In this document: piece after piece, positions 35,999 to 56,905 of the stretch
Layout: each line of letters opens with the position of its first letter
Numbering within the stretch: the first letter of the stretch is position 1
DNA from: Candidatus Doudnabacteria bacterium
GTDB taxonomy: Bacteria; Patescibacteriota; Doudnabacteria; UBA920; O2-02-FULL-48-8
Reading direction: 5' to 3'
Length of the DNA: 64,000 bases
Assembly (NCBI GenBank): GCA_037200925.1
Contig: JBBCGO010000001.1
Location: 601,607 to 665,606 of the forward strand
The notes under the pieces: generated by a model
The model's database searches: none
Told to the model about the DNA's origin: nothing
The model's input: only the letters and a program-made list of their open reading frames with translations
Translations under genes and position numbers: made by a program

Positions 35999-36010
35999 CG
36001 GCGGTTTTTT
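35983..36010. terminator. Terminator hairpin AAAACCGCCTAACGGCGGTTTTTT
   Basis: A GC stem and T6 lie immediately after the rpsA stop. Confidence 0.65.
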
Positions 36011-36693
36011 CATAAATTATTTTCTATTGAGACCAGATCATCGTAGACAGTCCTGTTGTTGGCCACCCAATGATCTGCCGGCGGCTGCTTGTATAGTCCG
36101 TTCATTTGTTCAAAGCTCATCTGCGCATATTTGATCGGCGAGTGCAAAGGATATTTGTTTAAAAAATGATTCATGGTGATCACTCCATCGCCAAGGTTCG
36201 TGCCCATGTTCCAAGGGCTTGTTCCCCCGACCCCCCAGCAGTTGGATGTATCAATATGGTAATGCAGGCACATGGAGCTTTCGGCGTTGGACAGCGCCAC
36301 GATCTGTTTCCAGTTGCGGAGTGTGACCAAGGTTGAGGCATATTCGGCCAAGGGAGATCTTTGCTCCTGAAGATATGTCCGGACTTTGGATGTGAGCTCC
36401 TGCTGTCTCATCGCCTGCTGGCGTATCTGCGCCTGGTAATATTGATCGCTCAGTTCCAGGGAGCGCATATCCAGATAATCATTGAAGCTGGCATCGGACA
36501 GATCAAACACCAGTAAGGGTCCTATGTCCGGCTGATTGACTTTGGTGTCTGCAGCATAGGTTACGTGGGGGATAACGGTTGTGGACAGGCTGACCAAAAG
36601 AACGATCAGGACCAGTTTATGTTTCAGGGCAAGTGTAGTGAAGCTTGCTTTCAGCTGGGGAAATTTTATTTTAAAGATTATATCAAGATCCAT
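36010..36693 (-). CDS. Secreted protein with a C-terminal SNAES...C...NCWGVGG domain of unknown function
   Basis: An N-terminal TM/signal is present. The C-terminal domain is shared with the paralog at 40668..41252. Confidence 0.5.
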   Translation of the reverse strand: MDLDIIFKIKFPQLKASFTTLALKHKLVLIVLLVSLSTTVIPHVTYAADTKVNQPDIGPLLVFDLSDASFNDYLDMRSLELSDQYYQAQIRQQAMRQQELTSKVRTYLQEQRSPLAEYASTLVTLRNWKQIVALSNAESSMCLHYHIDTSNCWGVGGTSPWNMGTNLGDGVITMNHFLNKYPLHSPIKYAQMSFEQMNGLYKQPPADHWVANNRTVYDDLVSIENNL

Positions 36694-36950: not shown

Positions 36951-37024
36951 GGCGTCATGGCCGAGCGGTTAGGCAGAGGTCTGCAAAACCTTTTACACCG
37001 GTTCAACTCCGGTTGACGCCTCCA
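36951..37024 (+). tRNA. tRNA-Cys (GCA)
   Basis: The sequence folds into a cloverleaf with acceptor GGCGTCA/TGACGCC, anticodon loop CTGCAAA and T-arm ACCGG-TTCAACT-CCGGT. It ends with a discriminator T followed by CCA. Confidence 0.8.
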
Positions 37025-37029
37025 ATAAA

Positions 37030-37116
37030 GCCTGGGTGGCGGAACTGGCATACGCATGGGACTTAAAATCCCAGGCCCGCAAGGGATTGAGGGTTCGATT
37101 CCCTCCCCAGGCACCA
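37030..37116 (+). tRNA. tRNA-Leu (TAA)
   Basis: The acceptor is GCCTGGG/CCCAGGC and the anticodon loop is CTTAAAA. It has a long variable arm, the T-arm GAGGG-TTCGATT-CCCTC, and ends ACCA. Confidence 0.9.
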
Positions 37117-37326
37117 GAAATCGGAATCGAAGGGCAGAAGTGAAGCGAAGCTGAACGTCGACGAATGCGAGCAAGCGCAGCATTCGGCGCTGCCCCGGAC
37201 AGATTCCCTCCCCAGGCACCAGAAATCGGAATCGAAGGGCAGAAGTGAAGCGAAGCTGAACGTCGACGAATGCGAGCAAGCGCAGCATTCGGCGCTGCCC
37301 CGGACAGATTCCCTCCCCAGGCACCA
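37117..37326 (+). repeat. Two perfect tandem copies of a 105-bp unit, each an 85-bp structured D element plus an exact copy of the last 20 nt of tRNA-Leu
   Basis: The units at 37117-37221 and 37222-37326 are identical. Each ends gattccctccccaggcacca, matching tRNA-Leu 37097-37116. Confidence 0.85.
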
Positions 37327-37350
37327 GATTGATATACTATAACCATAACC

Positions 37351-39723
37351 ATGAATAAGAAAAATAAAATCTCCGCATCCAGTAAGAAAACCCTTAAGCT
37401 TAAAGTTTTAGCCAAGGAAAAGGAAGGTATCAGGCGCAGACTGGCTGTGACCGCAGGCAAACTTCGCCTTAAAGCCGAAAAACTTGCAGTGACGGCCAAA
37501 AAAAAGGAAAGCGTCAGGCGCAAGCTGGCCGTGAGGGCTAAGAGGCTTCCTATTAAAGCCGAAAAGTTGGCGGTAACAGCCAAAGAAAAGGAAAGTATCA
37601 GACGAAGGCTGGCTGTGACCGCAGAGAAACTTGCCATTACTGCCAAGGAAAAAGAAAGCATCAGGCGCAACCTGGCTGTGACCGCAAGACAACTTGCCAG
37701 AACAGCGAAAGAAAAAGAAAGCGTTCGGAACAAGCTGGTGGTAACGGCAGAGAAACTTGCTATAACAGCTAAGGAAAGAGAAAGCATCAGGCAAAATCTT
37801 GCCGTAACCGCCAAGGAAAAAGAAAGCGTTCGGAACAAGCTGGTGGTAACGGCAGAAAAGCTGGCTGTGACCGCCAAGGAAAAAGAAAGTGTGAGGCGCA
37901 ATTTGGCTGTGACCGCCAAGGAAAAAGAAAGCGTTCGGAACAAGCTGGTGGTTACTGCTAAAAAGCTCGCAATTACCGCCAAGGAAAAAGAAAGCGTTCG
38001 GAACAAGCTGGTGGTAACGGCAGAAAAGCTGGCTGTGACCGCCAAGGAAAAAGAAAGTGTGAGGCGCAATTTGGCTGTGACCGCCAAGGAAAAAGAAAGC
38101 GTTCGGAACAAGCTGGTGGTTACTGCTAAAAAGCTCGCAATTACCGCCAAGGAAAAAGAAAGCGTTCGGAACAAGCTGGTGGTAACGGCAGAGAAACTTG
38201 CTATAACAGCTAAGGAAAGAGAAAGCATCAGGCAAAATCTTGCCGTAACCGCCAAGGAAAAAGAAAGCATCAGGCGCAACCTGGCTGTGACCGCAGAGAA
38301 ACTTGCCATTACTGCCAAGGAAAAAGAAAGCATCAGACAGAACTTGGCAGTGACAGCCAAGGAAAAAGAAAGCATCAGACAGAACCTGGCTGTGACTGCC
38401 AAGGAGCTTGCCGTAACCGCCAAGGAAAAAGAAAGCATCAGACAGAACTTGGCAGTGACAGCAAAAGAAAAAGAAAGTATCAGGGAAAACCTGGCAGTGA
38501 CAGCAAAAGAAAAAGAAAGTATCAGACAGAACCTGGCTGTGACAGCAGAAAAACTGGCCGTGACTGCCATAGAAAAAGAAACAATGATCGCCAGTATCGG
38601 GGAGGGGCTTATTGCTACCGATGAAAAAGGAATTATTACCGTTATAAATAATACGGCTGAAAAACTGCTTGATATTAAAAGCGAAGAAGTTATAGGAAAA
38701 GTTTTTTCCGAAGTGATCCCTATGGAAGACGAAAAAGGAGCATCAATTCCGCCCCAAAAACGTCCTATGATCATGGCTTTGACAGCCGGTACGACTACCA
38801 GCACAACAACAGAGGGCGCAAGCTATTATTACGTGCGGAAAGACAAAACAAAATTTCCGGTCGCAATGGTGGTGACGCCTATTATTCTTGACAGCAAGGT
38901 CATCGGGACCATTGAAGTTTTCCGTGATATCACGCGGGAAAAAGAAGTTGACCGGGCTAAAAGCGAATTTGTGTCGCTTGCTTCTCATCAGCTCCGCACT
39001 CCGCCCACGAGCATGAAATGGTTTTTGGAAATGCTGCTTTCCGGTGAGGTCGGAGAATTAAACGAAAAACAGAGAGAATATTTCGAAGAGGTGTATAGGA
39101 ACAATCAGCGGATGATAACCCTTGTTAATACACTGCTTAATGTGTCGCGGATCGATCTTGGTGTGTTCGCCATTCAGCCCGAACCAACCGACGTAGTAGC
39201 CCTCACCAAGGGAATAATTGAAGAAATGAACCCGCAAATACACGAAAAAGAATTGCGCGTGAATGAAAAATATTCGAAGAACCTTCAAAAGATTTTCGTT
39301 GATCCGAAACTCATAAGCATCGCGATACAAGATGTTGTCAGCAATGCGGTGAAATATACGCCGCCGAAAGGAACTATTGATGTGGAGATCTCCTTGAAAC
39401 AAAACGGTGAGAGTATCGGAGGCCGATTGATCAAAAAAGACAGTTTGGTCGTATTTATATCGGACACCGGCTACGGTATTCCCAAAGACCAGCAGGATAA
39501 GATCTTTACCAAGCTTTTCCGCGCTGACAATGTGAAAGAAAAGGATACGGACGGGACAGGATTAGGGCTGTACCTGGCCAAGTCTATCATTGACCACGCC
39601 CAAGGGAATATTTGGTTCGAGTCTGAACTGAACAAGGGATCGAAATTCTATCTTACGATCCCGCTCGAAGGCATGAAGAAAAAAGAAGGAATAACAAAGA
39701 TCACCAGCGGTTCTACCGGTTAG
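37351..39723 (+). CDS. Cytoplasmic sensor histidine kinase with about 400 aa of N-terminal near-identical coiled-coil tandem repeats, then PAS, HisKA and HATPase domains
   Basis: The H-box SHQLRTP is present, with the N/G boxes (DTGYGIP, GTGLGL). A PAS domain carries a Thr-rich insert. The N-terminal region consists of 14-aa LAVTAKEKESVRRN units. Confidence 0.8.
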   Translation: MNKKNKISASSKKTLKLKVLAKEKEGIRRRLAVTAGKLRLKAEKLAVTAKKKESVRRKLAVRAKRLPIKAEKLAVTAKEKESIRRRLAVTAEKLAITAKEKESIRRNLAVTARQLARTAKEKESVRNKLVVTAEKLAITAKERESIRQNLAVTAKEKESVRNKLVVTAEKLAVTAKEKESVRRNLAVTAKEKESVRNKLVVTAKKLAITAKEKESVRNKLVVTAEKLAVTAKEKESVRRNLAVTAKEKESVRNKLVVTAKKLAITAKEKESVRNKLVVTAEKLAITAKERESIRQNLAVTAKEKESIRRNLAVTAEKLAITAKEKESIRQNLAVTAKEKESIRQNLAVTAKELAVTAKEKESIRQNLAVTAKEKESIRENLAVTAKEKESIRQNLAVTAEKLAVTAIEKETMIASIGEGLIATDEKGIITVINNTAEKLLDIKSEEVIGKVFSEVIPMEDEKGASIPPQKRPMIMALTAGTTTSTTTEGASYYYVRKDKTKFPVAMVVTPIILDSKVIGTIEVFRDITREKEVDRAKSEFVSLASHQLRTPPTSMKWFLEMLLSGEVGELNEKQREYFEEVYRNNQRMITLVNTLLNVSRIDLGVFAIQPEPTDVVALTKGIIEEMNPQIHEKELRVNEKYSKNLQKIFVDPKLISIAIQDVVSNAVKYTPPKGTIDVEISLKQNGESIGGRLIKKDSLVVFISDTGYGIPKDQQDKIFTKLFRADNVKEKDTDGTGLGLYLAKSIIDHAQGNIWFESELNKGSKFYLTIPLEGMKKKEGITKITSGSTG
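37411..38566 (+). repeat. Coding tandem repeat with a 42-bp unit (14 aa = 2 heptads), about 27 copies, and higher-order 168-bp near-perfect duplications
   Basis: Identical blocks such as gtgaggcgcaatttggctgtgaccgccaag recur at 37891 and 38059. Confidence 0.9.
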
Positions 39724-39762: not shown

Positions 39763-40155
39763 ATGACAGATACATCAAATAAAAAAATACTTATTGTAGA
39801 AGATGAGATGTCCCAGCGGAAAGCTCTTGTGGATAAATTTACACGGGAAGGTTTTCAGGTTGTTTCGGCCAGAGACGGCGAGGAAGGATTGAGCACCGCC
39901 CTTAAGGAAAAACCCGACCTAATTCTCCTCGACATTGTAATGCCCAAAATGGACGGCATGACCATGCTCAAAAAACTGAGGCAAGAGAACGAATGGAGCA
40001 AAACTGTTCCTGTGATAATGCTTACGAACTTAAGCGCCGATGACGATAAAATAATGAAGGGAGTCACTGAAGATCTACCTTCATATTATTTGGTGAAATC
40101 AAACTGGGCGATCAATGATGTGGTGGAAAAGGTCAAAGACCGTCTTTCTCAATAA
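39763..40155 (+). CDS. Stand-alone response-regulator receiver (CheY-like) protein
   Basis: The acidic pocket DE-D (EDE...D), the phospho-acceptor LLDIVMP and a conserved K are present. Confidence 0.8.
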   Translation: MTDTSNKKILIVEDEMSQRKALVDKFTREGFQVVSARDGEEGLSTALKEKPDLILLDIVMPKMDGMTMLKKLRQENEWSKTVPVIMLTNLSADDDKIMKGVTEDLPSYYLVKSNWAINDVVEKVKDRLSQ

Positions 40156-40161
40156 AATTAT

Positions 40162-40629
40162 ATGCCGGAATCAGCAAGTGCTTTAGAAAATAGACCCAGC
40201 ACGGATAGTCCTGATATCATTGAAAACCAAAAAGAGCAACTGAGTCCGCTTGAGAAAAAAATAGAAGAACTCCGTGATCTGGAAGGGATCATTGGTGCTC
40301 TGGATTTGGATTATAATTTCCAGAATAGTGAATCAGATCTCGTTGTAAAAAAAGACAGTAGCGTGAAGACCCATGTCAACAAGATATTGGATCGGATCAG
40401 ACAAGGATATGAAGGTAAGTTAAAAGGTAAGGATATTGCTGAGCATATCAAGCACGTTCTTTTCGAAGGAAATTTAAAAGAACAAGATCTGACAGATAGG
40501 ATAAATAATATTTATGCCGATCTTGCAAATTTAGAGGAACGGTTGCAGTCGGCTAAAACTGAGGATGATATAAGCAATTCAATTCAACCTATTGTAGATA
40601 AATATGGAGGCCAGGACTGGCCGGAATAA
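40162..40629 (+). CDS. Hypothetical protein, likely co-operonic with the histidine kinase and response regulator
   Basis: The ORF lies 7 nt after the response-regulator stop. No recognisable domain was found. Confidence 0.4.
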   Translation: MPESASALENRPSTDSPDIIENQKEQLSPLEKKIEELRDLEGIIGALDLDYNFQNSESDLVVKKDSSVKTHVNKILDRIRQGYEGKLKGKDIAEHIKHVLFEGNLKEQDLTDRINNIYADLANLEERLQSAKTEDDISNSIQPIVDKYGGQDWPE

Positions 40630-40667
40630 TAAATTAAAAAAGCCCTCCGTGCGGAGGGCTTTTTTAA

Positions 40668-41252
40668 TTAGTTTTGCAGGGGTAATTGATTCAATTGATT
40701 TAAAATTTGGTTTACCGCCAATACCCAGTTTGCATTGGGATGCCCGACATATCGGTTCACGATTTTTTTCGGAGTGTCTGCGCCGGCCGCAATATATTTG
40801 GTGGCCAGCAGCTGGTCGACGTCTGCGAACCCTTCAGAGAAAGACTCGTAGCGTTTCAGGTTCCAAGCGCCGCCCACGCCCCAGCAATTGTTGTACATCT
40901 GATGCTTGCAGAGTGTTGATTCTCCGTTGGAAATGGCCAAAACCAATTTCCAATTGTCATTCTGTAAGATGTCAGCGGCATATGGCGCCAAAGGCGAATT
41001 TTTTTGCTCCAGATAAGTTTGTAAGATCGCGATGTTCGGATCCGGTTGTTCGGGCTGTTGGGTTTGAAGCACATCCGCAGCCTGATCGTTATTGTTCTGC
41101 ACAAGCGGAGCCAGATCAGTAAGATTGACGTTTTGTAGTGTTTGTATTTCAAGGACGAGTTTTGTGTTTTGTGTTTGGGCTGAAGCTGAGTATGGCAGTA
41201 ATGAAACCGCCGAAGTCACAATCAGTGTAGCCAAGACAAAACGGGCTGTCAT
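40668..41252 (-). CDS. Secreted paralog carrying the SNGES...C...NCWGVGG domain
   Basis: A GGGGAAA RBS precedes the ATG at 41252. The signal peptide is MTARFVLATLIVTSAVSLLPYSASA. The C-terminal domain is homologous to 36010..36693. Confidence 0.5.
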   Translation of the reverse strand: MTARFVLATLIVTSAVSLLPYSASAQTQNTKLVLEIQTLQNVNLTDLAPLVQNNNDQAADVLQTQQPEQPDPNIAILQTYLEQKNSPLAPYAADILQNDNWKLVLAISNGESTLCKHQMYNNCWGVGGAWNLKRYESFSEGFADVDQLLATKYIAAGADTPKKIVNRYVGHPNANWVLAVNQILNQLNQLPLQN

Positions 41253-41419
41253 TGAATATTTCCCCACGCGTTCATAATCCAGGAACCGGGTCACTCTGCT
41301 GAGGTTGCAATTCAGGAAAGTTCACATTGAAGTGAGGACCCAGGTATGGGCAATAAACGGTTCGGTAGACCTTTAAATATTCTTAAAGAGCTGTTGCGCG
41401 GTTTTACATAGTTTGAATT

Positions 41420-45029: not shown

Positions 45030-46016
45030 TCACCAGATAATCAGAACGGCCATAACACCTATTCCAATGACAAGAGTGGATGTAATTATTGCATTAACCG
45101 GTGTTGCAAATAAACTTTTTGCGGACTGAACAAGCGTTTGGCCTGAGGTTGGCGAAGTTGTGGTGAGGGAAGGTACTGTTTCCGGGAGCGGAGAAGGAGT
45201 TGCCGGAATGGCAACCGGGGTTGGCGAAGGAGTAGCTGGCGGAGTCGGTGTCGGTGTGGAAGCGGGAGTAGGTGAAGGTGTGGCCTCCGGAGTCGTTGTT
45301 GGCGTGGTTGAAGTAGGATTAACCGATATGGGGCCTTCTGACGGTATGGCATCAGTGAATACCACAAGCCGTTGGGGGTACATACCGTTAACCTGATTCC
45401 AAATTCCTTCGCAGGTAATAAGATTTAAGTGCGCTAGGCCGTCGGTAGATGTGAAAACAGTCGTGGCATCCGCATCCCGGTCAAATGAATTGATGGCGCG
45501 GACCTGGAATGCAAGAGTTTCATTTTTATCATCCAGTATATATATTTTATCGCCGACCCGCAGCTTGTCCAAATTATAAAAAACCCATGGCACTCCGTTG
45601 CTGATGCCGAAGTGTCCGCCGATGACCGCGCTTCCCGTATCGCCGGGGTGTGGACCCAAGGCAAACCAGGCAACATTCACAGAACCGGCCGGCACATCCA
45701 TTCTCCCGTCAGAAGTGATGAGTGCGTCCTCAATTAAAGAGTCCACTCCTATAACCGGGATCTGAAGGCGGACCGGGAGTCCTGAAGGTATGCCTCCAGG
45801 ATCGCGGATGTCGGAATAAGCGACCTGGCCGCCCGATCCGGTTGTCGGGAATTTCGTTACCGGGAATTTCCAGCCGAAAAGCGCATCGGGTACGAGTGTC
45901 ACCGGCTTATTCTTGTTGAGGTGAGGCAACAACAGCAAATACCCGGCTCCCAATATTACTATGGAAACAATTACGATCAATATTCTTTTTAATCTTGATT
46001 TGGATTTTCTTTTCAT
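45030..46016 (-). CDS. Sortase-family transpeptidase with an N-terminal TM, a PT-rich linker and a C-terminal TM
   Basis: The catalytic TLxTC-type motif HLNLITCEGIW is present, with the conserved His region GGHFGI. Confidence 0.75.
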   Translation of the reverse strand: MKRKSKSRLKRILIVIVSIVILGAGYLLLLPHLNKNKPVTLVPDALFGWKFPVTKFPTTGSGGQVAYSDIRDPGGIPSGLPVRLQIPVIGVDSLIEDALITSDGRMDVPAGSVNVAWFALGPHPGDTGSAVIGGHFGISNGVPWVFYNLDKLRVGDKIYILDDKNETLAFQVRAINSFDRDADATTVFTSTDGLAHLNLITCEGIWNQVNGMYPQRLVVFTDAIPSEGPISVNPTSTTPTTTPEATPSPTPASTPTPTPPATPSPTPVAIPATPSPLPETVPSLTTTSPTSGQTLVQSAKSLFATPVNAIITSTLVIGIGVMAVLIIW

Positions 46017-46033
46017 TGTTTTTTTACCGTTCT

Positions 46034-46978
46034 TTAGGATTTGCGCTTATTTACCGGCTTCCCGAATTTTCTCCGGTAGACGAATCCGATAATAAGCAGC
46101 ACTAGAAGGCCGGCCAAGATCTCCCACACAATACTTTTGCTGTTATTGTTGACCGATCCTGTTTCCGGGAAATTGGGATTTGCCTGAGCAGTCGCGGCAG
46201 GCGAAGTGGCTACGTAGACGGTAAGAGCCACGTTATCTGAAGCCTGCAAACCGTTGGCAAAACCAGTTACTGTAGCTGTGTTCGTGGTTGTTTGCGTCAG
46301 GGTCGTGTCGCAGGTATAGATCCAGGCTTCACTAACATCCAGAAGATTGTTGCCGTTAGTGTCTCCCAGCTTGTTGGATATAGCGCTGCACTTATTGTCA
46401 GTAACGGTCACGTAGCTTAAAGGCACCACTCCCGGATTGGTGACCCTATAAGTATAGGTGATCTTGCCCCCTTCGGGAGGCAGGGATAAAGGGTAAGCAA
46501 CTTTGGTGATGTTGATAATGCTGACCAGCGGAGGCGGAGTCTTGGAACCGACAACGACGGTGGCATATGCCTGGTGCGTTGCGGTTATATCATTGGCAGT
46601 GCCAGTGGCTGTGGCAGTGCTTTGGGTAGTTTGGGAAACGGTTTTTGTACAGGTAAATCTCCATGTCTCGCTAAAGTCCAACTTTTTATCACCGTTGTCG
46701 TCGCCTTCTGAAAATTTAACAGGGCTGCAGTTGTCGTCAGAAACCTTTATGTCGGTCAAAGGCACTTCTTGAAGAAAATTCTTGACCGCATATTTGTATG
46801 TTACCTTGCCGGGTCCTTTCGGCAGTGCCAGCGGCTCCGGCACTTCGGTTATGCCGATCAAGGGAACATATAAAACGCTCGGGCTGGTTTGGGCAAGACT
46901 CGCCTTTGTGCCGTATCCAAATACCAATGCCGCGGCCAGTATCAGAACAAGGCCCGATGATTTAACTGTTTGTTTCAT
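46034..46978 (-). CDS. Surface protein with tandem DUF11-like repeat domains and a C-terminal cell-wall sorting signal (NFPETG + TM + RRKFGK)
   Basis: A signal peptide is present. The repeats read D-NCSPV...GDDNGD..LD..E.W.YTCT and GKITYTYRVTNPGVVPL. The C-terminus carries the tripartite sorting signal. Confidence 0.7.
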   Translation of the reverse strand: MKQTVKSSGLVLILAAALVFGYGTKASLAQTSPSVLYVPLIGITEVPEPLALPKGPGKVTYKYAVKNFLQEVPLTDIKVSDDNCSPVKFSEGDDNGDKKLDFSETWRFTCTKTVSQTTQSTATATGTANDITATHQAYATVVVGSKTPPPLVSIINITKVAYPLSLPPEGGKITYTYRVTNPGVVPLSYVTVTDNKCSAISNKLGDTNGNNLLDVSEAWIYTCDTTLTQTTTNTATVTGFANGLQASDNVALTVYVATSPAATAQANPNFPETGSVNNNSKSIVWEILAGLLVLLIIGFVYRRKFGKPVNKRKS

Positions 46979-46989
46979 ATTAAATTATT

Positions 46990-47769
46990 TTAATTACTTT
47001 TTTTATTTATAACCTTGATGGTCAGAGCGACATTATCAGTGGCCTGCAAACCGTTGGCAAAGGCGGTAACATGAGCCGTATCTGTTGTTGTTTGCGTCAG
47101 AGTTGCGGTGCATGTATAAACCCAGATTTCATTTATATCCAAAAGATTATTGCCGTTGGTATCTCCGAGTCTGCCGGACATATCGGTGCATTTATCGTCA
47201 GTGACCGTTACATTGCTTAAAGGCACTACGCCCGGATTGCCGACTCGGAAAGTATAGGTGATCTTGCCCCCTGCGATGGGCAAGGGTAAAGGATAGGCAA
47301 TTTTGGTGACGTTAACAATACTGACCAGCGGGGGCGGAGTCTTGGAGCCGACAACAACAGTGGCATAGGCTTTATGTGTTGCGGTTAGGTTATTGGCAAC
47401 TCCTGTTGCCGTCGCAGTGCTGAGAGTCGTTTGGGAAAGTTTTGCAGTGCAGGTATATCTCCATGTTTCATTATAATCAAGTCTGGCATTGCGATTGTCA
47501 TCGCCGGTTACAAACCTGACAGGGCTGCAGTTGTCATCGACAACCCTGACACCGGCCAAAGGCGCTTCTTTAACGAAACTTTTAACCGCATAACTGTAAG
47601 TGATGTTACCCGGCCCATTCGGCAGTGCCAGCGGTTTGGGCACAGATGTAATGCCGATCAAAGGGACATATAATGTTTGTGCCAGCACCGTCTTTAAAGC
47701 GTAAACAGATACGAATCCGATTAGCAGTATCAGCACAAAACTTACTATTGATTTAATCGTTTGTTTCAT
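46990..47769 (-). CDS. Tandem paralog of the DUF11-repeat surface protein, lacking the sorting signal
   Basis: About 70% identity to 46034..46978 over two repeat domains. The C-terminus ends KVINKKSN with no anchor. Confidence 0.65.
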   Translation of the reverse strand: MKQTIKSIVSFVLILLIGFVSVYALKTVLAQTLYVPLIGITSVPKPLALPNGPGNITYSYAVKSFVKEAPLAGVRVVDDNCSPVRFVTGDDNRNARLDYNETWRYTCTAKLSQTTLSTATATGVANNLTATHKAYATVVVGSKTPPPLVSIVNVTKIAYPLPLPIAGGKITYTFRVGNPGVVPLSNVTVTDDKCTDMSGRLGDTNGNNLLDINEIWVYTCTATLTQTTTDTAHVTAFANGLQATDNVALTIKVINKKSN

Positions 47770-47864
47770 GTTTGATTATTCCGATTCTTGCTTATAGCTT
47801 AACATTTTTCGGCAACTTTGTATTGTTCGTCTGTGGGTAAGTTGAATACTTTTTTCCGGGTTTT

Positions 47865-49721
47865 TTAATCCCCTAACTCCGAAATGAGTTTGGCGCGCGT
47901 CAACGGGCCGAAAACACCGACCTGCGGCAATCCTGTGTTTGCCTGGTATTTTTTGACTGCCGCTCTCGTTAGCTGACCGTAGAACCCGTAAGCAACCCCA
48001 GCCGGAATTCGCAGAAACCCTTTTTGCACCAGAACTGTTTGAAGCGCTTTGACATCCGCGCCGCGCGCGCCCGTGCCGAGCGATCTGCGGAAAATAGTAT
48101 TCGCTTCAGTTTTGTTCATTTGAATGGTTCCAGTATTGGGAAAACCGGGAACAACCGGGAGGGCGGACAGGCCGGGAACAGACACAATGACAGTAACAGA
48201 AGCCGAATCTGTCGCAGTGATCCCATTGGCTGTTCCGGTAGCCGTGGCCGTGTTCGTTGTGGTAGTTTTGAGATTTGTCCTGCAGGCGTAACTCCAAGTT
48301 TCCGAAACATCAAGCAAATTATTGCTATTGGCATCACCGGAAGGGTCTGAGAGCGGACTGCATGTATTATCAATTAGATTCACATTGCTCAAAGCGACGA
48401 TACCCGGATTGGTTACTGTATATGAGTAGGCAATCATTCCTCCTCCAACAGGCAGTGACATTGGACTTGGAATTTTTGTCACATGAATTAAGGGCGGGAT
48501 CACGACTCCTGTATTCGGCAGTCCCGGAGCGCCGACAACTACTGTTGCTGTTGCGGTATCAGTGGTGCTCAGCCCATTGGCGAATCCTGTCGCCGTGACT
48601 GTGTTCGTCTGGGTCGCTGTAAGTGTCGTTGTGCAGGTGTAGACCCAAGTTTCATTCGCATCGAGCGCGCCGTTGTTATTGGCATCGCCTGAAACCAAGG
48701 TTAACGGGCTGCAAGAATCATCCGTCAAAGTTACCGTGGTCATAGGGACTGTTCCGATATTGCGAACCGTATAGTTGTAGATTACAGGCCCTGGTCCTGC
48801 CGGCAGAGCGAGAGGGCTAGGTACTTTCACGACATCGATCATGGGCGGAACCGGGACCGGGCCGGAGCTTGCAGATGCAGGGACGCCGCCGGGAACGGGC
48901 ACCGGTCCGCTGAAAGAAGAAAAATTATCGATCAAGAATCCATTGCCCAAGGTCGCCGGGGCGGCTGTGCCAGCAACGCGGAACATTATTGAATCGACGG
49001 GGAAAGGTATGCCGCCGGCAAAATCGCGGAAATAATCTTCCCAGCTCGTTCCCGTGTGGATGAGTACGCCGTCCAGGTAGACGTTCACAATATCGTTTTC
49101 TGCCCCATCGATGAATTGCATCGTTATTTTGACCGTGTGCGGGACCGTTCTGTCGATACCGGTGGCGATGGGAGTGAGGACAAAATTCGATATTGAGTGC
49201 TGGTAATCCTCAAAATTAAGCTGGAGGCCTGCGGGAGTATCCTGCATCTGCAGCCAGCTCATTCGCATTGTGTCGCCGCGATCCGGGCTTGCGACCACGG
49301 ACAGGCCTGGCTGTTCGCTTCCCGGGACTGTTGAAGCAAAATCCCATTGCGCTTCAAAATACGGCTGGCGTGTTCCTCCGGAAAATGCGCTGCTGCCAGC
49401 CAATGTTTCCCCTGCCTCATCCGCCAAAGATTTGGAAAAAGTCTGGTCGTTAAAACTGCCGCAGGTAATGGCATTGGAAATGCGCAAGCTTTGGGTTCCG
49501 AAATTTGCAAAGCCCGCGGTATTGGGAACCACAGCTACGTCATACAAAGGACAGGTCGAAGACCCGTGTCCGCTGGTCCAGCCATCCTGGCCATTTAAGT
49601 CGCCAAGGGTGAAACCGTCAAAATTCGTACTATTAGTATCGGCAGCAGCTTTCTTCCCTCCCGCCAGGACCAGAATGGCCATAATAAAACCCAAAAAAAA
49701 GCGTTTGAATGTTTTCAACAT
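47865..49721 (-). CDS. Large secreted protein with an N-terminal beta-rich domain, DUF11-like repeats and a C-terminal peptidoglycan-binding domain (PG_binding_1)
   Basis: Internal LPNTG and FPNTG motifs are present. The C-terminal GADVKALQTVLVQKGF...AVKKYQANTGLPQVG region is a PG-binding fold. Confidence 0.65.
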   Translation of the reverse strand: MLKTFKRFFLGFIMAILVLAGGKKAAADTNSTNFDGFTLGDLNGQDGWTSGHGSSTCPLYDVAVVPNTAGFANFGTQSLRISNAITCGSFNDQTFSKSLADEAGETLAGSSAFSGGTRQPYFEAQWDFASTVPGSEQPGLSVVASPDRGDTMRMSWLQMQDTPAGLQLNFEDYQHSISNFVLTPIATGIDRTVPHTVKITMQFIDGAENDIVNVYLDGVLIHTGTSWEDYFRDFAGGIPFPVDSIMFRVAGTAAPATLGNGFLIDNFSSFSGPVPVPGGVPASASSGPVPVPPMIDVVKVPSPLALPAGPGPVIYNYTVRNIGTVPMTTVTLTDDSCSPLTLVSGDANNNGALDANETWVYTCTTTLTATQTNTVTATGFANGLSTTDTATATVVVGAPGLPNTGVVIPPLIHVTKIPSPMSLPVGGGMIAYSYTVTNPGIVALSNVNLIDNTCSPLSDPSGDANSNNLLDVSETWSYACRTNLKTTTTNTATATGTANGITATDSASVTVIVSVPGLSALPVVPGFPNTGTIQMNKTEANTIFRRSLGTGARGADVKALQTVLVQKGFLRIPAGVAYGFYGQLTRAAVKKYQANTGLPQVGVFGPLTRAKLISELGD

Positions 49722-52933: not shown

Positions 52934-53341
52934 TTACGTTGTTGGTGTTTTTTCTTCAGGCTGATTGTTTTTTGCAAGAAACCTTTTTACTTTCTCGACA
53001 ATATCGCCTACAGCCTGGTTTGATTTGATCAGATATTCGTCTGATCCCAGTCCAAGGCCTTTTTTGATGTCTTCGTCTTCGCCAAGTAGCGTGAGTATTA
53101 CCACAGGGATGGCTTTCGTGTCAGGAGAATTTTTTAATTCCTCGAGCACTTCCAGGCCCGGCTTTTTTGGAAGGATGAGATCAAGCATCACTACATCGGG
53201 GCGCTTGGACTTCACCAGTTCCAGACCGGCAATACCATCAAATGCCTGAAAGACCTCAAATCCGGCATCTCTGAATTCCGTAGAAAGCACTTTGGACAGA
53301 ATTTCATCGTCTTCAATCAATGCTATTTTTTTTGCGCTCAT
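52934..53341 (-). CDS. Stand-alone response-regulator receiver protein, paralog of 39763..40155
   Basis: The receiver motifs are present (EDDE, D in MLDLILP, conserved K). The gene lies immediately downstream of the histidine kinase. Confidence 0.8.
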   Translation of the reverse strand: MSAKKIALIEDDEILSKVLSTEFRDAGFEVFQAFDGIAGLELVKSKRPDVVMLDLILPKKPGLEVLEELKNSPDTKAIPVVILTLLGEDEDIKKGLGLGSDEYLIKSNQAVGDIVEKVKRFLAKNNQPEEKTPTT

Positions 53342-53369
53342 ATAAATTCCGCATTCGCGCCTAATTTAT

Positions 53370-54995
53370 TTATTTAAGATTTTTAACATATGCCAATCCG
53401 CTTCCTCCGGCTTTGGACGGCGATATCAAAGGCAGTTCAACAAAGAAAGTCGTGCCTTTTTCTTCCGGCAGTGTGGGCGATTCAACCCAGATCTTTCCTC
53501 CCAGCAGTTTTGCCGCTTCGCGGGCGATGTAAAGACCCAATCCCGTGCCGTCGGTTTTTGTAACAACTGCATTGCTCGCGCGCATGAACTTTTCAAACAA
53601 ATGTTCCTGATCCTTCTTGGGGATCCCGATGCCGGAGTCTTTGACCTGGAGGATCACCGAATTTTCCTTCTTCTCCAGCAAGATATCGATCTTTCCGGCG
53701 GGCGGAGTATAATCTATTGCATTGGTAACGAGATTCTGCAGGATGTATTCGAGCAGGTTCATATCCGTAACAATCGTAATTTCTTCCGGGTGCGGCGTGA
53801 ATTTAAGCGACAATTTTTTCTTTTCGGAAAGCAGGCGGTATTCGCCAATGTGTTTTTCGATAAAACCGACCAACTCCAGGGATTCAGCATGTACACCGAC
53901 GCTCCCGTTCTCGATCCGGGAAGTATCCAGCAACAATTTTACCAGTGCATTGGAGCGTTGAACCGAATAAAGAATATCATTGAGATATTCTTTACCTTTG
54001 TCCGTTAATTTTTCTTTTTTCATGATCAGCTCGATCAGCCACCTTATGCCCGTAAGCGGTGTGCGCAATTGGTGTGATGCGAGCGAAACGAATTCAGTTT
54101 TGGCGCGGTCGATCTCTTTTTCGCGGGTTATATCCCGGAAGATGTTTATTGCTCCTATGACTTTGCCGCCAAGGACTATGGGAGACACGGTTCTTGATAC
54201 AGGGAATTTTGTCCCGTCCTTTCTTATGTAATAAAAGGAAGTTGTTATAGTTGTGGTCGTGGTTGCGGCCGTTGTCAGAGCGGCATGTATAGCCCCTTCC
54301 TCAGCTGACAGCGGATTGCCCTTCTCGTCCTCGCGAATCAGGATCTCATACCATTGCTTGCCGATCGATTCGGAGCTGTTATAGCCGAGCATCTGTTCGG
54401 CCGTGTGGTTCATAAAAATGATCTTCCCTTTCTCATCAAGCGCTATCAGCCCGTCGCCGACCGAAAGCAAGATCGCCTCTTCTTTGGCTTTTGCCTGCGC
54501 TAGCTTTTCCGCCTCAGCCTGAAGATCTTCGTAGACATTCCGCGCGGCTATCTTTGCGTTTTCCAGATCTTTCTCCACCCGTTTCCTGGTAGAGATATTT
54601 TGAAATGAAGCTGCGCCTATAATACCTACCGCTATGAGAAGAGAGGAGGTGGTCAGCCCGTCCAGTGGAGTTGCATATAAACTTTTTGCAGAAACAGCTG
54701 CTGCTTGAGGGACCTGAATTGATCCTGTTAACGGGAATTTAACCGTTTGGGATAAAGCGGTCTGGGGTAAACTTTGGTTGGATGGAGGCAGCAATAGAAA
54801 ATAGATCTCAGCTCCAAGGATCACAAAAAAAATTAAGATCAGAATCAAATTGAATAAATATGCAGTTTTTTTTTGAGTCTTCTGTTGCCTGCTTTTTTTG
54901 GTTAAAAAGAAAAAAATAAAAAGTGCTAACAATGCACCTGATAAGATGCTCCATACTATGATCTTTATATCGGAATTCACCGTAATAGAGTTCAT
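53370..54995 (-). CDS. Membrane sensor histidine kinase (2 TM, coiled-coil, PAS, HisKA, HATPase)
   Basis: The H-box SHQLRTP is present, with DSGIGIP and GTGLGL. The PAS domain has the same Thr-rich insert as the kinase at 37351. Confidence 0.85.
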   Translation of the reverse strand: MNSITVNSDIKIIVWSILSGALLALFIFFFLTKKSRQQKTQKKTAYLFNLILILIFFVILGAEIYFLLLPPSNQSLPQTALSQTVKFPLTGSIQVPQAAAVSAKSLYATPLDGLTTSSLLIAVGIIGAASFQNISTRKRVEKDLENAKIAARNVYEDLQAEAEKLAQAKAKEEAILLSVGDGLIALDEKGKIIFMNHTAEQMLGYNSSESIGKQWYEILIREDEKGNPLSAEEGAIHAALTTAATTTTTITTSFYYIRKDGTKFPVSRTVSPIVLGGKVIGAINIFRDITREKEIDRAKTEFVSLASHQLRTPLTGIRWLIELIMKKEKLTDKGKEYLNDILYSVQRSNALVKLLLDTSRIENGSVGVHAESLELVGFIEKHIGEYRLLSEKKKLSLKFTPHPEEITIVTDMNLLEYILQNLVTNAIDYTPPAGKIDILLEKKENSVILQVKDSGIGIPKKDQEHLFEKFMRASNAVVTKTDGTGLGLYIAREAAKLLGGKIWVESPTLPEEKGTTFFVELPLISPSKAGGSGLAYVKNLK

Positions 54996-54998
54996 TTG

Positions 54999-55817
54999 TC
55001 AGCGATTTTTTTGATTACCATCGCCGTTTTTGATTTGTTTTTTCAGGTCATCGATTTCTTTTTTGAGCTCCACCATTTTCAGTTCCCTGCCGATCATGCT
55101 TTTATTCACTGATTCCAATTCTGTTACTCTGCTGAGCAGTTCTTTTGCGCGCTCGGCGATCTTGACCTCGAGGCTTTTGGTATATTCGGCTAATTTACCC
55201 TCAAGCCCTTTTCTGGTGGTGATGTCTTCCATGGCCAGGATGATCAGTTGCACAGTGTCTATTTGTTTGGCATTGAGCAGTATAGTTTTTTCACCGATGG
55301 TTTCGAAAGTATGCGTGACGCCGTAATCCCTGACCATTTTTTTCTCCGGCAGAATTTCTTCCAGCAGGCTCTTCAGTTCAGGAATATTCCACTGGCCGTT
55401 CCCCAGTTTATAAAGAAGAATATTTTCCGTTTCTTGGGGCGAAACCTGAAAGGTTTCATAGAAAGTCGGATTCGCTTCAACCACGCGAAGATCAGCGTCA
55501 AGAATTAAGAACGACTCTCTGGCAACGTCTACCAAAGTTTTCATATAATGCAAAGCTTCCTGTTGTGATTCTTTGATCTCCTGCTTTGATTCTGTTAACT
55601 GCGCTTCTGATTCTTTTATTTTCTCTTCCGATTCTGTTATATTCTGCTTTGATTCTGTTAACTGCGCTTCTGATTTTTTTATTTTTTGTTTCGATTCTTT
55701 TACATCCTGCTTTGATTCTCTAATGTCCTCTTCGGATTCTCTTACTCCCAGTTTTGATTCTTTTAACTCCGCTTCCGATTCTTTTAATGTATCTGATTTT
55801 TTTGTGTCGTCGTTCAT
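54999..55817 (-). CDS. PAS-like domain protein with N-terminal ESK-rich coiled-coil tandem repeats, upstream partner of the histidine kinase and response regulator
   Basis: Repeats of KESEAQLTESKQ are followed by a PAS-like core and a C-terminal coiled-coil. The underlying DNA repeat spans 55560-55800. Confidence 0.55.
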   Translation of the reverse strand: MNDDTKKSDTLKESEAELKESKLGVRESEEDIRESKQDVKESKQKIKKSEAQLTESKQNITESEEKIKESEAQLTESKQEIKESQQEALHYMKTLVDVARESFLILDADLRVVEANPTFYETFQVSPQETENILLYKLGNGQWNIPELKSLLEEILPEKKMVRDYGVTHTFETIGEKTILLNAKQIDTVQLIILAMEDITTRKGLEGKLAEYTKSLEVKIAERAKELLSRVTELESVNKSMIGRELKMVELKKEIDDLKKQIKNGDGNQKNR

Positions 55818-56035: not shown

Positions 56036-56905
56036 TCAGTACTTTTTTTTGTCCTTGTCGTGATCTTTGTCTTTGTGTTCGTCCTTGTGGTCTTTATCGT
56101 GATCCTTATGATCCTTGTCCTTGTGGTGATCACGATCGTGGTCCTTGTCGTGGTGATGATGGTGGTGCTTCTTGGGCGGCACTTCGCACTTTTCCACCGG
56201 CGGGAAAGTGGAACCCTTTGAGCAGACGGCGACATGGTTCGTGTCCATCGTCACCGCTGCCGTGAGGGCTATCACACTGCCGGAAACATTGACGCCGGTC
56301 GTCAGGGTGACGCTCGCCAGTGCCAGAATGTTTCCCGCAAATTGCGTGCCGGTTCCGAGGGTAGCGGAGCTTCCGATCTGCCAAAAGACATTTCCGCAAT
56401 TCGTTGCATCCATCATGACAACGTGCGAGTTGCTTGCGGTTGTCAGCGTGCTTGCGATCTGGAAAACCCAGGGACCGGACCCGGTCAGAACGAGCGTTCC
56501 GGTCAGCTGCGCCGAGGAGTTGAAACAGTACACTCCCGGCGGAAGCGTGAGCGTGCCCAGATCTTGGCCGGTCAGATTATTGACGCTTGGGCAAGGCAAC
56601 GCTTTTAGCGCGGCGTACGCCAGGTGGGCATCTGCTTGAGCTGTTGCCGCGCGCATGTTGCCCGCGTTTATTGTTCCTCCGACCACGACTCCCGGCGGGA
56701 AGCCGGTGATCGAGGTGCCGGGACTGACCCCGAGATCACCGGTGACGACGCTCGCGCCGGTGTTGGTGACCGTCGTGGCGCCAAGCACGGCGAAGTTCTG
56801 CGCCGAACCGAGCGACTGGGCGGATGCCGCGGAAGCGAAGAGAACAATCGCAGCGAGAGGGACAGACACAAACCACCGCATCTTCTTTCGCATACAATCC
56901 TCCAT
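56036..56905 (-). CDS. Secreted DUF3494 (ice-binding-like) domain protein with a C-terminal His/Asp/Lys-rich tail, GC about 62%
   Basis: A signal peptide is present. The DUF3494 signature is FAVLGATTVTNTGASVVTGDLGVSPGTSITGF. The tail reads HHHHHHDKDHDRDHHKDKDHKDHDKDHKDEHKDKDHDKDKKKY. Confidence 0.65.
   Translation of the reverse strand: MEDCMRKKMRWFVSVPLAAIVLFASAASAQSLGSAQNFAVLGATTVTNTGASVVTGDLGVSPGTSITGFPPGVVVGGTINAGNMRAATAQADAHLAYAALKALPCPSVNNLTGQDLGTLTLPPGVYCFNSSAQLTGTLVLTGSGPWVFQIASTLTTASNSHVVMMDATNCGNVFWQIGSSATLGTGTQFAGNILALASVTLTTGVNVSGSVIALTAAVTMDTNHVAVCSKGSTFPPVEKCEVPPKKHHHHHHDKDHDRDHHKDKDHKDHDKDHKDEHKDKDHDKDKKKY

What the first reader, a model, noticed from the sequence alone, without database searches (positions are those of the whole stretch)
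37351..39723. Histidine kinase whose sensor region is about 400 aa of near-identical 14-aa (two-heptad) coiled-coil repeats with no TM segment
Seen in sequence: the C-terminal half is a canonical PAS/HisKA/HATPase kinase with SHQLRTP, DTGYGIP and GTGLGL. The N-terminal half, 37411-38566, is about 27 copies of LAVTAKEKES(V/I)R(R/Q)N interspersed with LVVTAEK half-units.

The copies are almost perfect at the DNA level. The unit is 42 bp, and 168-bp blocks repeat identically, for example at 37891 and 38059. This implies recent expansion or concerted evolution.

There is no hydrophobic TM segment. The protein is therefore a cytoplasmic kinase with a very long homotypic coiled-coil stalk.

Inference: the perfect DNA repeats make this a likely length-variable (contingency) locus, with the number of heptads tuning signalling or localisation.

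The paralogous module at 53370-55817 carries its repeats on a separate PAS protein, KESEAQLTESKQ at 55560-55800, which suggests domain fission or fusion between the two loci.
Basis: partly seen in the sequence, partly recalled or inferred. Interest (0 to 1): 0.75.

Follow-up and report, generated by a model that had tools for sequence, protein, structure and literature searches.

The report
Histidine kinase with expandable coiled-coil stalk
A soluble signalling kinase from a tiny "Candidatus Doudnabacteria" bacterium has about 400 residues of seven-residue helical repeats in front of its sensor domain; this undescribed repeat module occurs in hundreds of related kinases, and in relatives its length differs between near-identical strains.

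Summary
The gene is real: 37351-39723(+) encodes a 790-aa PAS-HisKA-HATPase kinase with no membrane segment. Residues 17-415 are 57 uninterrupted heptads of two kinds, LA(V/I)TAxx (36 copies) and KES(V/I)Rxx (21 copies).

Heptad units average 68-72% nucleotide identity, and the conserved residues use all synonymous codons. On top of this old array sit a few very recent block duplications, including 218 bp exact at an offset of 168.

The array is not peculiar to this genome. At least 169 Patescibacteria kinases carry the same two heptads, spanning 6-87 heptads. The array lies N-terminal to PAS, between PAS domains, between PAS and DHp, or directly on DHp, always in a fixed heptad phase. Pfam, NCBIfam, the PDB and the searched literature do not describe it.

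Near-identical alleles in relatives differ only by in-frame 7n-residue indels. One 589/568-aa pair was recovered in nine assemblies.

The best reading is an expandable, polybasic (+50) coiled-coil stalk continuous with the PAS cap helix, whose length changes by recombination. "Sensor region", "contingency locus" and fission or fusion with the second locus are not supported as stated.

I rate it a new variant of a known kind, of moderate interest.

The parts
37351..39723 (+). Histidine kinase gene, 790 aa (NCBI MEJ0021655.1, 'ATP-binding protein', Candidatus Doudnabacteria MAG)
   Evidence: ORF; exact match to the public record; domains
37351..37398 (+). 16-residue N-terminal leader MNKKNKISASSKKTLK. 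The family consensus is M-N-K-K-x-x-I-S-A-S-D-D-I-I-L-N, with a fixed length of 16 in 82% of 103 members.
37399..38595 (+). Array of 57 uninterrupted heptads (residues 17-415): 36 LA(V/I)TAxx and 21 KES(V/I)Rxx. Net charge is +50 over 392 residues. The array is predicted to be all alpha-helix.
   Evidence: heptad parse, charge; AlphaFold: helix 12-414; TRF
37807..38192 (+). Most recent expansion: a perfectly 168-bp-periodic block (8 heptads, 56 aa), where 37807-38024 is identical to 37975-38192
37711..37827 (+). First copy of a 117-bp exact repeat. The second copy is 38152-38268, at offset 441 = 21 heptads.
38152..38268 (+). Second copy of the 117-bp exact repeat
38575..38934 (+). PAS domain (residues 409-528). 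The last array heptads, LAVTAIE KETMIAS, run straight into its N-terminal cap.
   Evidence: helix to residue 414, first strand at 419
38956..39159 (+). HisKA/DHp domain (residues 536-603). The phospho-acceptor is His546 in SHQLRTP (codon 38986-38988).
39301..39669 (+). HATPase_c catalytic domain (residues 651-773) with N, G1 (DTGYGIP), F and G2 (GTGLGL) boxes
39763..40155 (+). Cognate single-domain response regulator (130 aa, receiver only). It is 44% identical to the stand-alone receivers next to array kinases in two other genomes.
40162..40629 (+). 155-aa ORF with no family match, the last gene of the apparent operon. It was not seen in the five distinct other array-kinase loci whose gene tables were examined.
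40632..40669 (.). Strong palindromic terminator-like hairpin (17 pairs) flanked by A and T runs, closing the operon
37097..37328 (+). Perfect 105-bp tandem repeat (2.2 copies) directly upstream of the start codon. Each copy begins with the last 20 nt of tRNA-Leu(taa).

Best explanation
This is a soluble WalK/VicK-like PAS-DHp-CA histidine kinase. It belongs to a Patescibacteria-specific family and signals to an adjacent single-domain response regulator.

Its first 415 residues are not a sensor. They are an expandable alpha-helical heptad array built from two conserved heptads, LAxTAxx and KExVRRK. The array most likely forms a long parallel coiled-coil stalk. At the standard coiled-coil rise per residue, 57 heptads would be roughly 59 nm. 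The stalk is continuous with the N-terminal cap helix of the PAS domain. In PAS-less relatives it is continuous with helix 1 of the DHp domain.

The stalk would hold the kinase protomers together. Being strongly polybasic, it may also tether them to a polyanion.

The peptide motif is ancient and selectively maintained. The number of heptads changes quickly, by slippage or unequal recombination between repeats in multiples of 21 bp, which preserves the coiled-coil register. This genome carries the longest uninterrupted array retrieved, enlarged by very recent block duplications.

Shown:
- the domain architecture
- the heptad phase
- the helical prediction
- the family distribution
- the synonymous divergence
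- the length polymorphism in relatives

Inferred:
- coiled-coil pairing and orientation
- the dimerising or tethering role
- any effect of length on signalling
For: Architecture and catalytic motifs:
- Domains are and invariant residues.
- Foldseek's best PDB matches are WalK 9a5d, VicK 4i5s and YF1 4gcz.
- A receiver-only response regulator lies 40 bp downstream. It is 44% identical to the receivers beside array kinases elsewhere.

Helix and register:
- There are 57 heptads without a phase break.
- 135 of 169 family arrays have no phase shift.
- All 32 array-to-DHp proteins share one phase relative to the phospho-His.
- All 107 array-to-PAS junctions fall in only two of seven possible phases.
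- AlphaFold predicts helix for residues 12-414, running up to the first PAS strand.
- In P0124 a single helix, 145-245, runs from the array through His228.
- Type A heptads that precede a B heptad end in Glu, which could pair with the invariant Arg at B position 5 as a g-e' salt bridge (the pairing is inference).

Module behaviour:
- The same array is found N-terminal to PAS, between two PAS domains (P0003), between PAS and DHp (P0225), and directly on DHp.

Selection on the peptide:
- L, T, A and R use all their synonymous codons within the window array.
- Homologs P0002 and P0003 keep the peptide repeats with at most 30-32 bp of exact DNA repeat.

Length instability:
- P0016 and P0071 are identical over 530 aa apart from 28- and 56-aa indels. 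Their loci are otherwise near-identical across about 5 kb.
- The 589-aa and 568-aa alleles differ by one 63-bp unit. They sit in loci that are 0.9% diverged, and were recovered 3 and 6 times, on both SNP backgrounds.
- Other pairs differ by 21, 42 and 63 aa.

Basic charge:
- The window array is +50 over 392 residues. Family arrays average +0.12 per residue and are never negative.
Against: - The hydrophobic core is weak and its register is ambiguous. With Leu at a, the d positions are Thr or Val and every B heptad puts Lys at a. If the register is continuous with the ERT-bearing linker of most homologs, Leu sits at d and Ala/Arg at a (PMC1592074).
- Leu at a with beta-branched residues at d is the pattern that favours tetramers in model peptides (my own knowledge). 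A dimer is therefore not assured.
- A chain carrying +50 should resist in-register homodimerisation unless the charge is neutralised.
- AlphaFold confidence in the array is only 50-79. The monomer model folds back at arbitrary low-confidence breaks at 176-178 and 365-370.
- No oligomer prediction or coiled-coil predictor could be run.
- The copy number of the 168-bp block could be mis-assembled, because the exact repeat of 218 bp exceeds typical short-read and k-mer lengths.
- No variation has been seen at this locus itself.
Confidence: 0.6

Rival explanations
1. Tunable rheostat or contingency locus. Heptad number is under diversifying or fluctuating selection, and sets kinase output, a stability or thermal threshold, or reach. 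Repeat instability would then be an adaptive mutational mechanism rather than a neutral by-product.
For: - Two length alleles coexist in one near-clonal population, on both SNP backgrounds.
- Array length ranges from 6 to 87 heptads across the family.
- The window gene has fresh block duplications.
- The weak core (Thr, Lys, Ala) would make stability depend on length (inference).
Against: - There are no data on phenotype or expression.
- The changes are in-frame and graded, unlike classical on/off simple-sequence contingency loci.
- The protein is cytoplasmic, so immune or phage selection is not an obvious driver.
- The wide tolerated range of lengths is equally what neutral drift under a register constraint would give.
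- Most units in the window are old, not hypervariable.
Confidence: 0.2
2. Polycationic tether. The main job of the array is electrostatic binding of a polyanion such as nucleoid DNA, RNA, polyphosphate or the acidic inner-leaflet membrane. This would localise or concentrate a kinase that has no membrane anchor, with avidity scaling with repeat number.
For: - Net charge is +50 in the window array.
- Net charge is non-negative in all 169 family arrays, with a mean of +0.12 per residue.
- The B heptad KExVRRK is +3.
- There is no TM segment.
Against: - No known nucleic-acid-binding or lipid-binding family matches.
- A strict heptad phase relative to PAS and DHp is not needed for simple electrostatic binding.
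- Some family arrays are near neutral (minimum 0.0).
- The 3.5-residue periodicity suits coiled coils rather than flat membrane-surface amphipathic helices (my own knowledge).
Confidence: 0.2
3. Assembly artefact. The array exists, but its length in this contig, particularly the 2.3 copies of the 168-bp block, is an expansion or collapse produced by the assembler.
For: - The exact 218-bp repeat at offset 168 is longer than typical Illumina reads and k-mers.
- A second perfect tandem repeat lies immediately upstream.
- Only one contig with this protein could be read.
Against: - Arrays of the same two heptads occur in hundreds of independent assemblies.
- The rest of the array is diverged enough to assemble uniquely.
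- The contig is 964 kb and contiguous through the region.
- The exact protein is on record on 2 contigs.
- At most a multiple of 56 aa is in doubt.
Confidence: 0.15
4. Single alpha-helix or disordered spacer. The region is a non-associating charged helix or a flexible linker that merely spaces the conserved 16-residue N-terminal peptide away from the kinase.
For: - It is rich in K, E and R, with many possible i to i+3/i+4 intrahelical salt bridges.
- AlphaFold confidence is only moderate.
- The N-terminal leader is conserved.
Against: - 41% of array residues are A, V, L or I, and Leu is invariant at heptad position 1. That is unlike known single-alpha-helix domains, which are nearly devoid of hydrophobic residues (my own knowledge).
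- The heptad phase is kept into PAS and DHp.
- The array also occurs between domains where there is no free N-terminus.
Confidence: 0.08

Closest known systems
WalK/VicK-type cytoplasmic PAS-DHp-CA histidine kinases (PDB 4i5s, 9a5d)
   Same: - The PAS-HisKA-HATPase order and all catalytic boxes are present.
- These are the best structural matches.
- They also give the best NCBIfam hit, HK_WalK, E 2.8e-65.
   Different: - The score of 221 bits is far below the WalK cut-off of 725, so it is not an ortholog.
- It has no TM, extracellular or HAMP part.
- It has a 57-heptad array, and its partner is a receiver-only regulator rather than an OmpR-type one.
Signalling helix (S-helix; Anantharaman, Balaji and Aravind 2006, PMC1592074)
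   Same: - It is a parallel coiled-coil segment joining PAS and other sensory modules to kinase modules.
- Most family members carry an ERT-containing linker (LEKKVLERTKSLE) between the array and PAS.
- The array occupies the same architectural positions.
   Different: - The S-helix is about 40 residues, or 5 heptads, with an ERT signature in the central heptad, and lies between two domains.
- The window protein has no ERT, has 57 heptads, and the array is N-terminal with nothing upstream.
N-terminal A'alpha coiled coil of LOV/PAS kinases such as YF1 (PDB 4gcz)
   Same: An N-terminal helix abuts the PAS core and pairs in the dimer. YF1 is among the top structural matches. The functional comparison is from my own knowledge.
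   Different: The A'alpha helix is about 20 residues and non-repetitive. Here the helix is about 400 residues, repetitive and variable in length.
Repeat-number-variable coiled-coil and repeat proteins (streptococcal M proteins, H. pylori CagY, group B streptococcal alpha C)
   Same: In-frame intragenic recombination between DNA repeats changes protein length while keeping the fold periodicity (my own knowledge).
   Different: Those are surface or secretion-system proteins under host selection. This one is a cytoplasmic signalling enzyme of an uncultivated groundwater-type symbiont lineage.
Phase-variable two-component genes (Campylobacter jejuni flgS/flgR)
   Same: A repeat-mediated mutational mechanism acts on a two-component system (my own knowledge).
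   Different: Those use homopolymeric tracts that frameshift the gene on or off. Here the units are multiples of 21 bp and stay in frame.

Membership tests
Class I (HisKA) two-component sensor histidine kinase | DHp domain with an H-box phospho-acceptor histidine | tested here: met
   Pfam HisKA E 1.8e-15, residues 536-603. SHQLRTP is present, and H546 is invariant in 96 homologs.
Class I (HisKA) two-component sensor histidine kinase | HATPase_c domain with N, G1, F and G2 boxes | tested here: met
   Pfam HATPase_c E 7.2e-24. N665, D705/G707/G709 and G735/G737/G739 are invariant.
Class I (HisKA) two-component sensor histidine kinase | Adjacent cognate response regulator | tested here: met
   39763-40155 matches Response_reg at E 3.1e-22. 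Related receivers flank array kinases in other genomes.
WalK/VicK orthologs | Score above the NCBIfam equivalog cut-off, with a membrane-anchored N-terminus | tested here: not met
   HK_WalK scores 221 bits against a cut-off of 725, and HK_VicK 150 against 680. There is no TM segment.
Canonical heptad coiled coil | Long uninterrupted 7-residue periodicity in a helical segment | tested here: met
   57 heptads with no phase break. AlphaFold predicts helix for 12-414.
Canonical heptad coiled coil | Hydrophobic residues at both a and d positions | tested here: inconclusive
   Leu is invariant at position 1. The partner core position is either Thr/Val (position 4) or Ala/Arg (position 5), and Lys occupies position 1 of B heptads.
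Canonical heptad coiled coil | Self-association of helices, with defined oligomer state and orientation | not testable with these tools
   Only monomer prediction was available.
S-helix (PMC1592074) | About 5 heptads with an ERT signature in the central heptad, located between two signalling domains | tested here: not met
   The window protein has no ERT, and the array is N-terminal and 57 heptads long. Many homologs do have an ERT linker after the array.
Contingency (phase-variable repeat) locus | Hypermutable repeat tract in or near the gene | tested here: met
   Exact direct repeats of 218, 117, 56 and 50 bp lie inside the ORF.
Contingency (phase-variable repeat) locus | Repeat-number differences between near-identical isolates at this locus | not testable with these tools
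   There is no close relative of this genome; the best hit is 56% identical. The feature is met for relatives: 589 vs 568 aa alleles, and P0016 vs P0071.
Contingency (phase-variable repeat) locus | Repeat change switches expression on or off, or alters an exposed antigen | tested here: not met
   All observed indels are multiples of 21 bp and in frame. The protein has no signal peptide or TM segment.
Single alpha-helix (SAH) domain | E/K/R-rich helix essentially lacking hydrophobic residues | tested here: not met
   A+V+L+I make up 162 of 392 residues (41%), and Leu is invariant each heptad.

The most novel reading that the evidence does not exclude
The LAxTAxx/KExVRRK array is a dedicated, genetically expandable coiled-coil module. 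Patescibacteria would use it as a rheostat for cytoplasmic two-component signalling. Gain and loss of heptads by recombination would tune kinase oligomerisation, a thermal or ionic stability threshold, or polyanion tethering. Populations would then carry standing length alleles of a signalling enzyme. That would be in-frame contingency variation acting on signal transduction rather than on surface antigens.
Probability: 0.15. Interest if true: 0.75.

Novelty: new variant of a known kind. Interest (0 to 1): 0.55.

Why it matters
Histidine kinases transmit signals through coiled-coil helices, and the register and length of those helices are central to current models. Here nature offers a family-wide series of one linker module in exact heptad increments, from 6 to 87 heptads. 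The module occurs at every architectural position: N-terminal, between PAS domains, between PAS and DHp, and directly on DHp. Strain-level length alleles also exist.

That is a ready-made experimental system for asking how coiled-coil length and stability set kinase output. It also flags an unannotated repeat module, absent from Pfam, NCBIfam and the PDB, in a lineage whose signalling is almost unstudied.

If length turns out to be functionally tuned, this would extend repeat-mediated contingency variation from surface proteins to cytoplasmic signalling enzymes.

Tried and rejected
- **Family and structure searches for the array.** A PDB sequence search with the array gave no hit at E up to 1. 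Pfam and NCBIfam gave only sub-threshold noise: Fil_haemagg, DUF3557 and SMC.
- **Literature.** Six full-text searches found nothing describing this array. They yielded only the S-helix paper, which I used for comparison.
- **Genome-collection scan.** It keyed on catalytic-core patterns and returned mostly array-less kinases across Patescibacteria. Only L005, L078 and L080 carried arrays, so it added little DNA-level data.
- **Domain fission/fusion with the second locus.** Rejected, because the 272-aa PAS protein shows no similarity (E 3.8).
- **Membrane anchoring.** Rejected.
- **Fold-back breaks in the AlphaFold monomer models.** I treat the breaks at 176-178 and 365-370, and at 133-144 in P0124, as artefacts. 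They have pLDDT below 50 and no turn motif.
- **Hits judged to be different repeats.** P0164 has an EELQSTNEELQ coiled coil. The giant proteins P0198 (LDLTATx), P0201 (ALSAKEF) and P0203 were matched on composition only.
- **Antisense ORF 36993-38804.** I consider it a by-product of codon symmetry, not a gene.
- **P0016 vs P0071 indels.** Assembly collapse cannot be excluded here, since P0071 has 2.2x coverage and the flanking repeats are 53 and 26 bp. I therefore relied mainly on the 589/568-aa allele pair, which was recovered repeatedly and whose 105-bp repeat is shorter than the k = 141 of the assembly that gave the shorter allele.
Full report
**1. What is in the sequence**

The ORF 37351-39723(+) encodes 790 aa. 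It is identical to NCBI protein MEJ0021655.1, an "ATP-binding protein" from a Candidatus Doudnabacteria MAG, on a 964-kb contig of GCA_037975565.1.

Pfam places PAS at residues 409-528, HisKA at 536-603 and HATPase_c at 651-773. The H, N, G1 and G2 box residues are invariant in an alignment of 96 homologs. The highest 19-residue hydropathy mean is 1.53, inside the PAS core, against 2.87 for the membrane-anchored paralog in the same window. The kinase is therefore soluble.

Forty bases downstream lies a receiver-only response regulator (39763-40155). It is followed by a 155-aa ORF with no family match and then by a strong hairpin terminator.

**2. The array**

Written in sevens from residue 17, the protein shows 57 consecutive heptads up to residue 415, with no stutter or stammer.
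- 36 are type A, LA(V/I)TA(K/E)(E/K).
- 21 are type B, KES(V/I)R(R/N/Q)(N/K).
- The order is a mixture of A-B units (42 bp) and A-A-B units (63 bp).

The composition is K 65, A 63, E 51, V 42, L 38, R 36 and T 32. This gives a net charge of +50, and 41% of residues are A, V, L or I.

**3. The DNA level**

The array is a mosaic, not a set of near-perfect copies.
- Mean pairwise identity of the 21-bp units is 68% for A and 72% for B.
- The conserved Leu, Thr, Ala and Arg positions use all their synonymous codons. Leu, for example, uses CTG 17 times, CTT 12, TTG 5 and CTC 2.
- Self-identity of the array is only 48% at lag 42.

Superimposed on this are a few very recent duplications.
- 37807-38024 equals 37975-38192 exactly: 218 bp at offset 168, or 8 heptads.
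- 37711-37827 equals 38152-38268: 117 bp at offset 441.
- There are also 56-bp and 50-bp exact pairs.
- Every offset is a multiple of 21.
- Six control segments of the same size elsewhere in the window have no exact repeat longer than 12 bp.

The picture is of old repeats held by purifying selection on the peptide, plus fresh block expansion.

**4. The array is a family trait**

A search with the whole protein returned 2271 hits. The best 120 are nearly all Patescibacteria kinases: Paceibacterota, Nomurabacteria, Taylorbacteria, Liptonbacteria, Parcubacteria and others. They carry the same two heptads and a conserved 16-residue leader, MNKKxxISASDDIILN. The closest is only 56% identical, so no near relative of this genome is available.

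A search with the array alone gave 441 hits at E <= 1e-6. The top 120 are essentially all kinases, of two architectures: array-PAS-HisKA-HATPase and array-HisKA-HATPase.

An exhaustive HMMER scan of 1.84 billion cluster representatives found 148 proteins at E <= 1e-3 and 49 at E <= 1e-10. The bona fide ones are again PAS or kinase signalling proteins.

The array also appears between two PAS domains (P0003, 1060 aa) and between PAS and DHp (P0225).

Across 169 members the array spans 6-87 heptads, with a median of 25. The window protein has the longest uninterrupted array retrieved.

No Pfam, NCBIfam or PDB entry covers the array, and six literature searches found no description of it.

**5. 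Structural inference**

AlphaFold predicts residues 12-414 as alpha-helix, with pLDDT of 50-79. The helix runs up to the first PAS strand, and PAS, DHp and CA are modelled confidently. The two breaks in the helix have pLDDT below 50 and no turn motif, so I regard them as monomer fold-back artefacts.

In the PAS-less relative P0124, one helix (145-245) runs from the array through the phospho-His.

The register is conserved.
- 135 of 169 arrays have no phase shift.
- All 32 array-to-DHp proteins place the His in the same heptad phase.
- All 107 array-to-PAS junctions use only two of seven phases.

These counts are inflated by shared ancestry, but they fit a continuous coiled coil.

Position-specific frequencies over 2357 A and 978 B heptads, which were selected by requiring Leu at A1, Ala at A5 and Arg/Lys at B5, are as follows.
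- Thr 81% at A4.
- Lys 91% at B1, Glu 99% at B2, and Val/Ile 87% at B4.
- Within the Arg/Lys allowed at B5, Arg accounts for 97%.

Leu is clearly a core residue. Whether the second core position is A4/B4 (Thr, Val) or A5/B5 (Ala, Arg) cannot be settled. The ERT-bearing linker of most homologs, read with the S-helix register of PMC1592074, would put Leu at d.

Foldseek matches the globular part to WalK, VicK and YF1. NCBIfam scores are far below the WalK and VicK cut-offs, so this is a relative in fold, not an ortholog.

**6. Length variation**

Among the retrieved proteins, several pairs with near-identical kinase domains differ only by in-frame indels inside the array.
- P0016/P0071: 530 of 530 residues identical apart from 28- and 56-aa gaps.
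- P0150/P0172: one 21-aa gap.
- P0008/P0015: 21 aa.
- P0036/P0057: 42 aa.
- P0066/P0099: 63 aa.
- P0121/P0129: 21 aa.

At the DNA level, the P0016 and P0071 loci are otherwise near-identical across about 5 kb, with 84- and 168-bp deletions between 53- and 26-bp direct repeats. The shorter contig has only 2.2x coverage, so collapse cannot be excluded there.

The P0150-type locus is cleaner. Loci from different samples are 0.9% diverged and differ by one 63-bp unit within a 105-bp exact repeat, shorter than the k = 141 of the assembly that produced the shorter allele. The 589-aa allele was recovered three times and the 568-aa allele six times. Both occur on both variants of an N-terminal SNP.

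Array length is thus genuinely polymorphic within near-clonal populations, in heptad multiples. For the window locus itself this could not be tested.

**7. How it most likely works**

The array is best read as an expandable coiled-coil stalk or linker module that is continuous with the PAS cap helix or with DHp helix 1. At the standard coiled-coil rise per residue (my own knowledge), 57 heptads correspond to roughly 59 nm, a sizeable fraction of an ultra-small cell.

The array would hold protomers together. Being polybasic in every family member, it may also bind a polyanion.

Heptad number drifts or is tuned through slippage and unequal recombination, which automatically preserves the register. 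The PAS domain remains the only recognisable sensor.

Output goes to a single-domain receiver that is conserved next to array kinases elsewhere, at 44% identity. The downstream target of that receiver is unknown.

**8.

On the interpretation:
- The cytoplasmic long-stalk kinase is supported.
- Length variability is supported for the family only.
- "Sensor region", "concerted evolution" and "contingency locus" in the classical sense are not supported.
- The fission/fusion link to 53370-55817 is not supported. That kinase is a 41% paralog with TM segments, and its neighbour's ES(K/E)Q heptads are unrelated.

**9. Novelty and score**

The kinase is of a known kind. The repeat module, its strict two-heptad grammar, its use at all linker positions and its strain-level length alleles appear undescribed. 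I rate it a new variant of a known kind, with interest 0.55. The main uncertainties are the oligomeric state, the functional meaning of length, and the exact copy number in this assembly.

Noticed in passing
window 37097-37328 (with tRNA-Leu 37030-37116): A perfect 105-bp tandem repeat (2.2 copies, 100% match) starts inside the 3' end of tRNA-Leu(taa). The last 20 nt of the tRNA, GATTCCCTCCCCAGGCACCA, recur exactly at 37202 and 37307, each followed by the same 85 bp, and end 24 bp before the kinase start codon. No other copy exists in the window. It looks like stacked att-site scars or a tandem duplication, and it could equally be an assembly oddity (no Rfam match beyond the tRNAs).
   Followed up: partly
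window 36993-38804 (-): A 603-aa antisense ORF stays open across the whole array and itself reads ...SFSLAVTA.... The codons for A-V-T-A (GCN GTN ACN GCN) are reverse-complement symmetric at codon positions 1-2, so the opposite strand, shifted by one base, encodes AVTA again. Each unit also forms a small imperfect hairpin. This is probably a by-product, but it might favour slippage.
   Followed up: partly
window 36010-36693 (-) and 40668-41294 (-): The tRNA-kinase-regulator cassette sits between two diverged paralogous genes for small, apparently secreted proteins (29% identity, E 8e-18; shared SPLAxYA...NCWGVGG motif). Neither matches a Pfam family.
   Followed up: partly
window 52934-55817 (-): A second two-component module has three genes. 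One is a 272-aa PAS protein whose first ~85 residues are ES(K/E)Q-type heptad repeats (TRF period 21/63). One is a 541-aa TM-anchored PAS kinase, 41% identical to the target's core. One is a 135-aa receiver-only regulator, 41% identical to the target's regulator.
   Followed up: partly
window ~45030-49721 (L001 17680-22371); also L003, L085, L088/L089: Array-kinase loci in several genomes lie close to genes for sortase and for Ice_binding or CLIPPER_2 surface proteins. In the window, a sortase and three CLIPPER_2 proteins lie 5-10 kb downstream. This may hint at what the system regulates, or it may be coincidence.
   Followed up: no
window 56036-56905 (-), repeat 56110-56170: A 289-aa secreted-looking protein ends in an extraordinary His/Asp/Lys tail, KKHHHHHHDKDHDRDHHKDKDHKDHDKDHKDEHKDKDHDKDKKKY, encoded by a 24-bp tandem repeat. 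This may be a metal-binding tail.
   Followed up: no
P0198 (2727 aa), P0201 (2625 aa), P0215 (1518 aa) from the representative search: Giant proteins are built from other strict 7-residue repeats (LDLTATx, ALSAKEF, EKDLTIT). They were matched to the array by composition only. They are unrelated in context but are striking heptad arrays in their own right.
   Followed up: no
window 40162-40629 (+): A 155-aa acidic, helical-looking ORF ends the kinase operon. It has no Pfam or NCBIfam family and was not seen in the five distinct other array-kinase loci whose gene tables were examined.
   Followed up: partly
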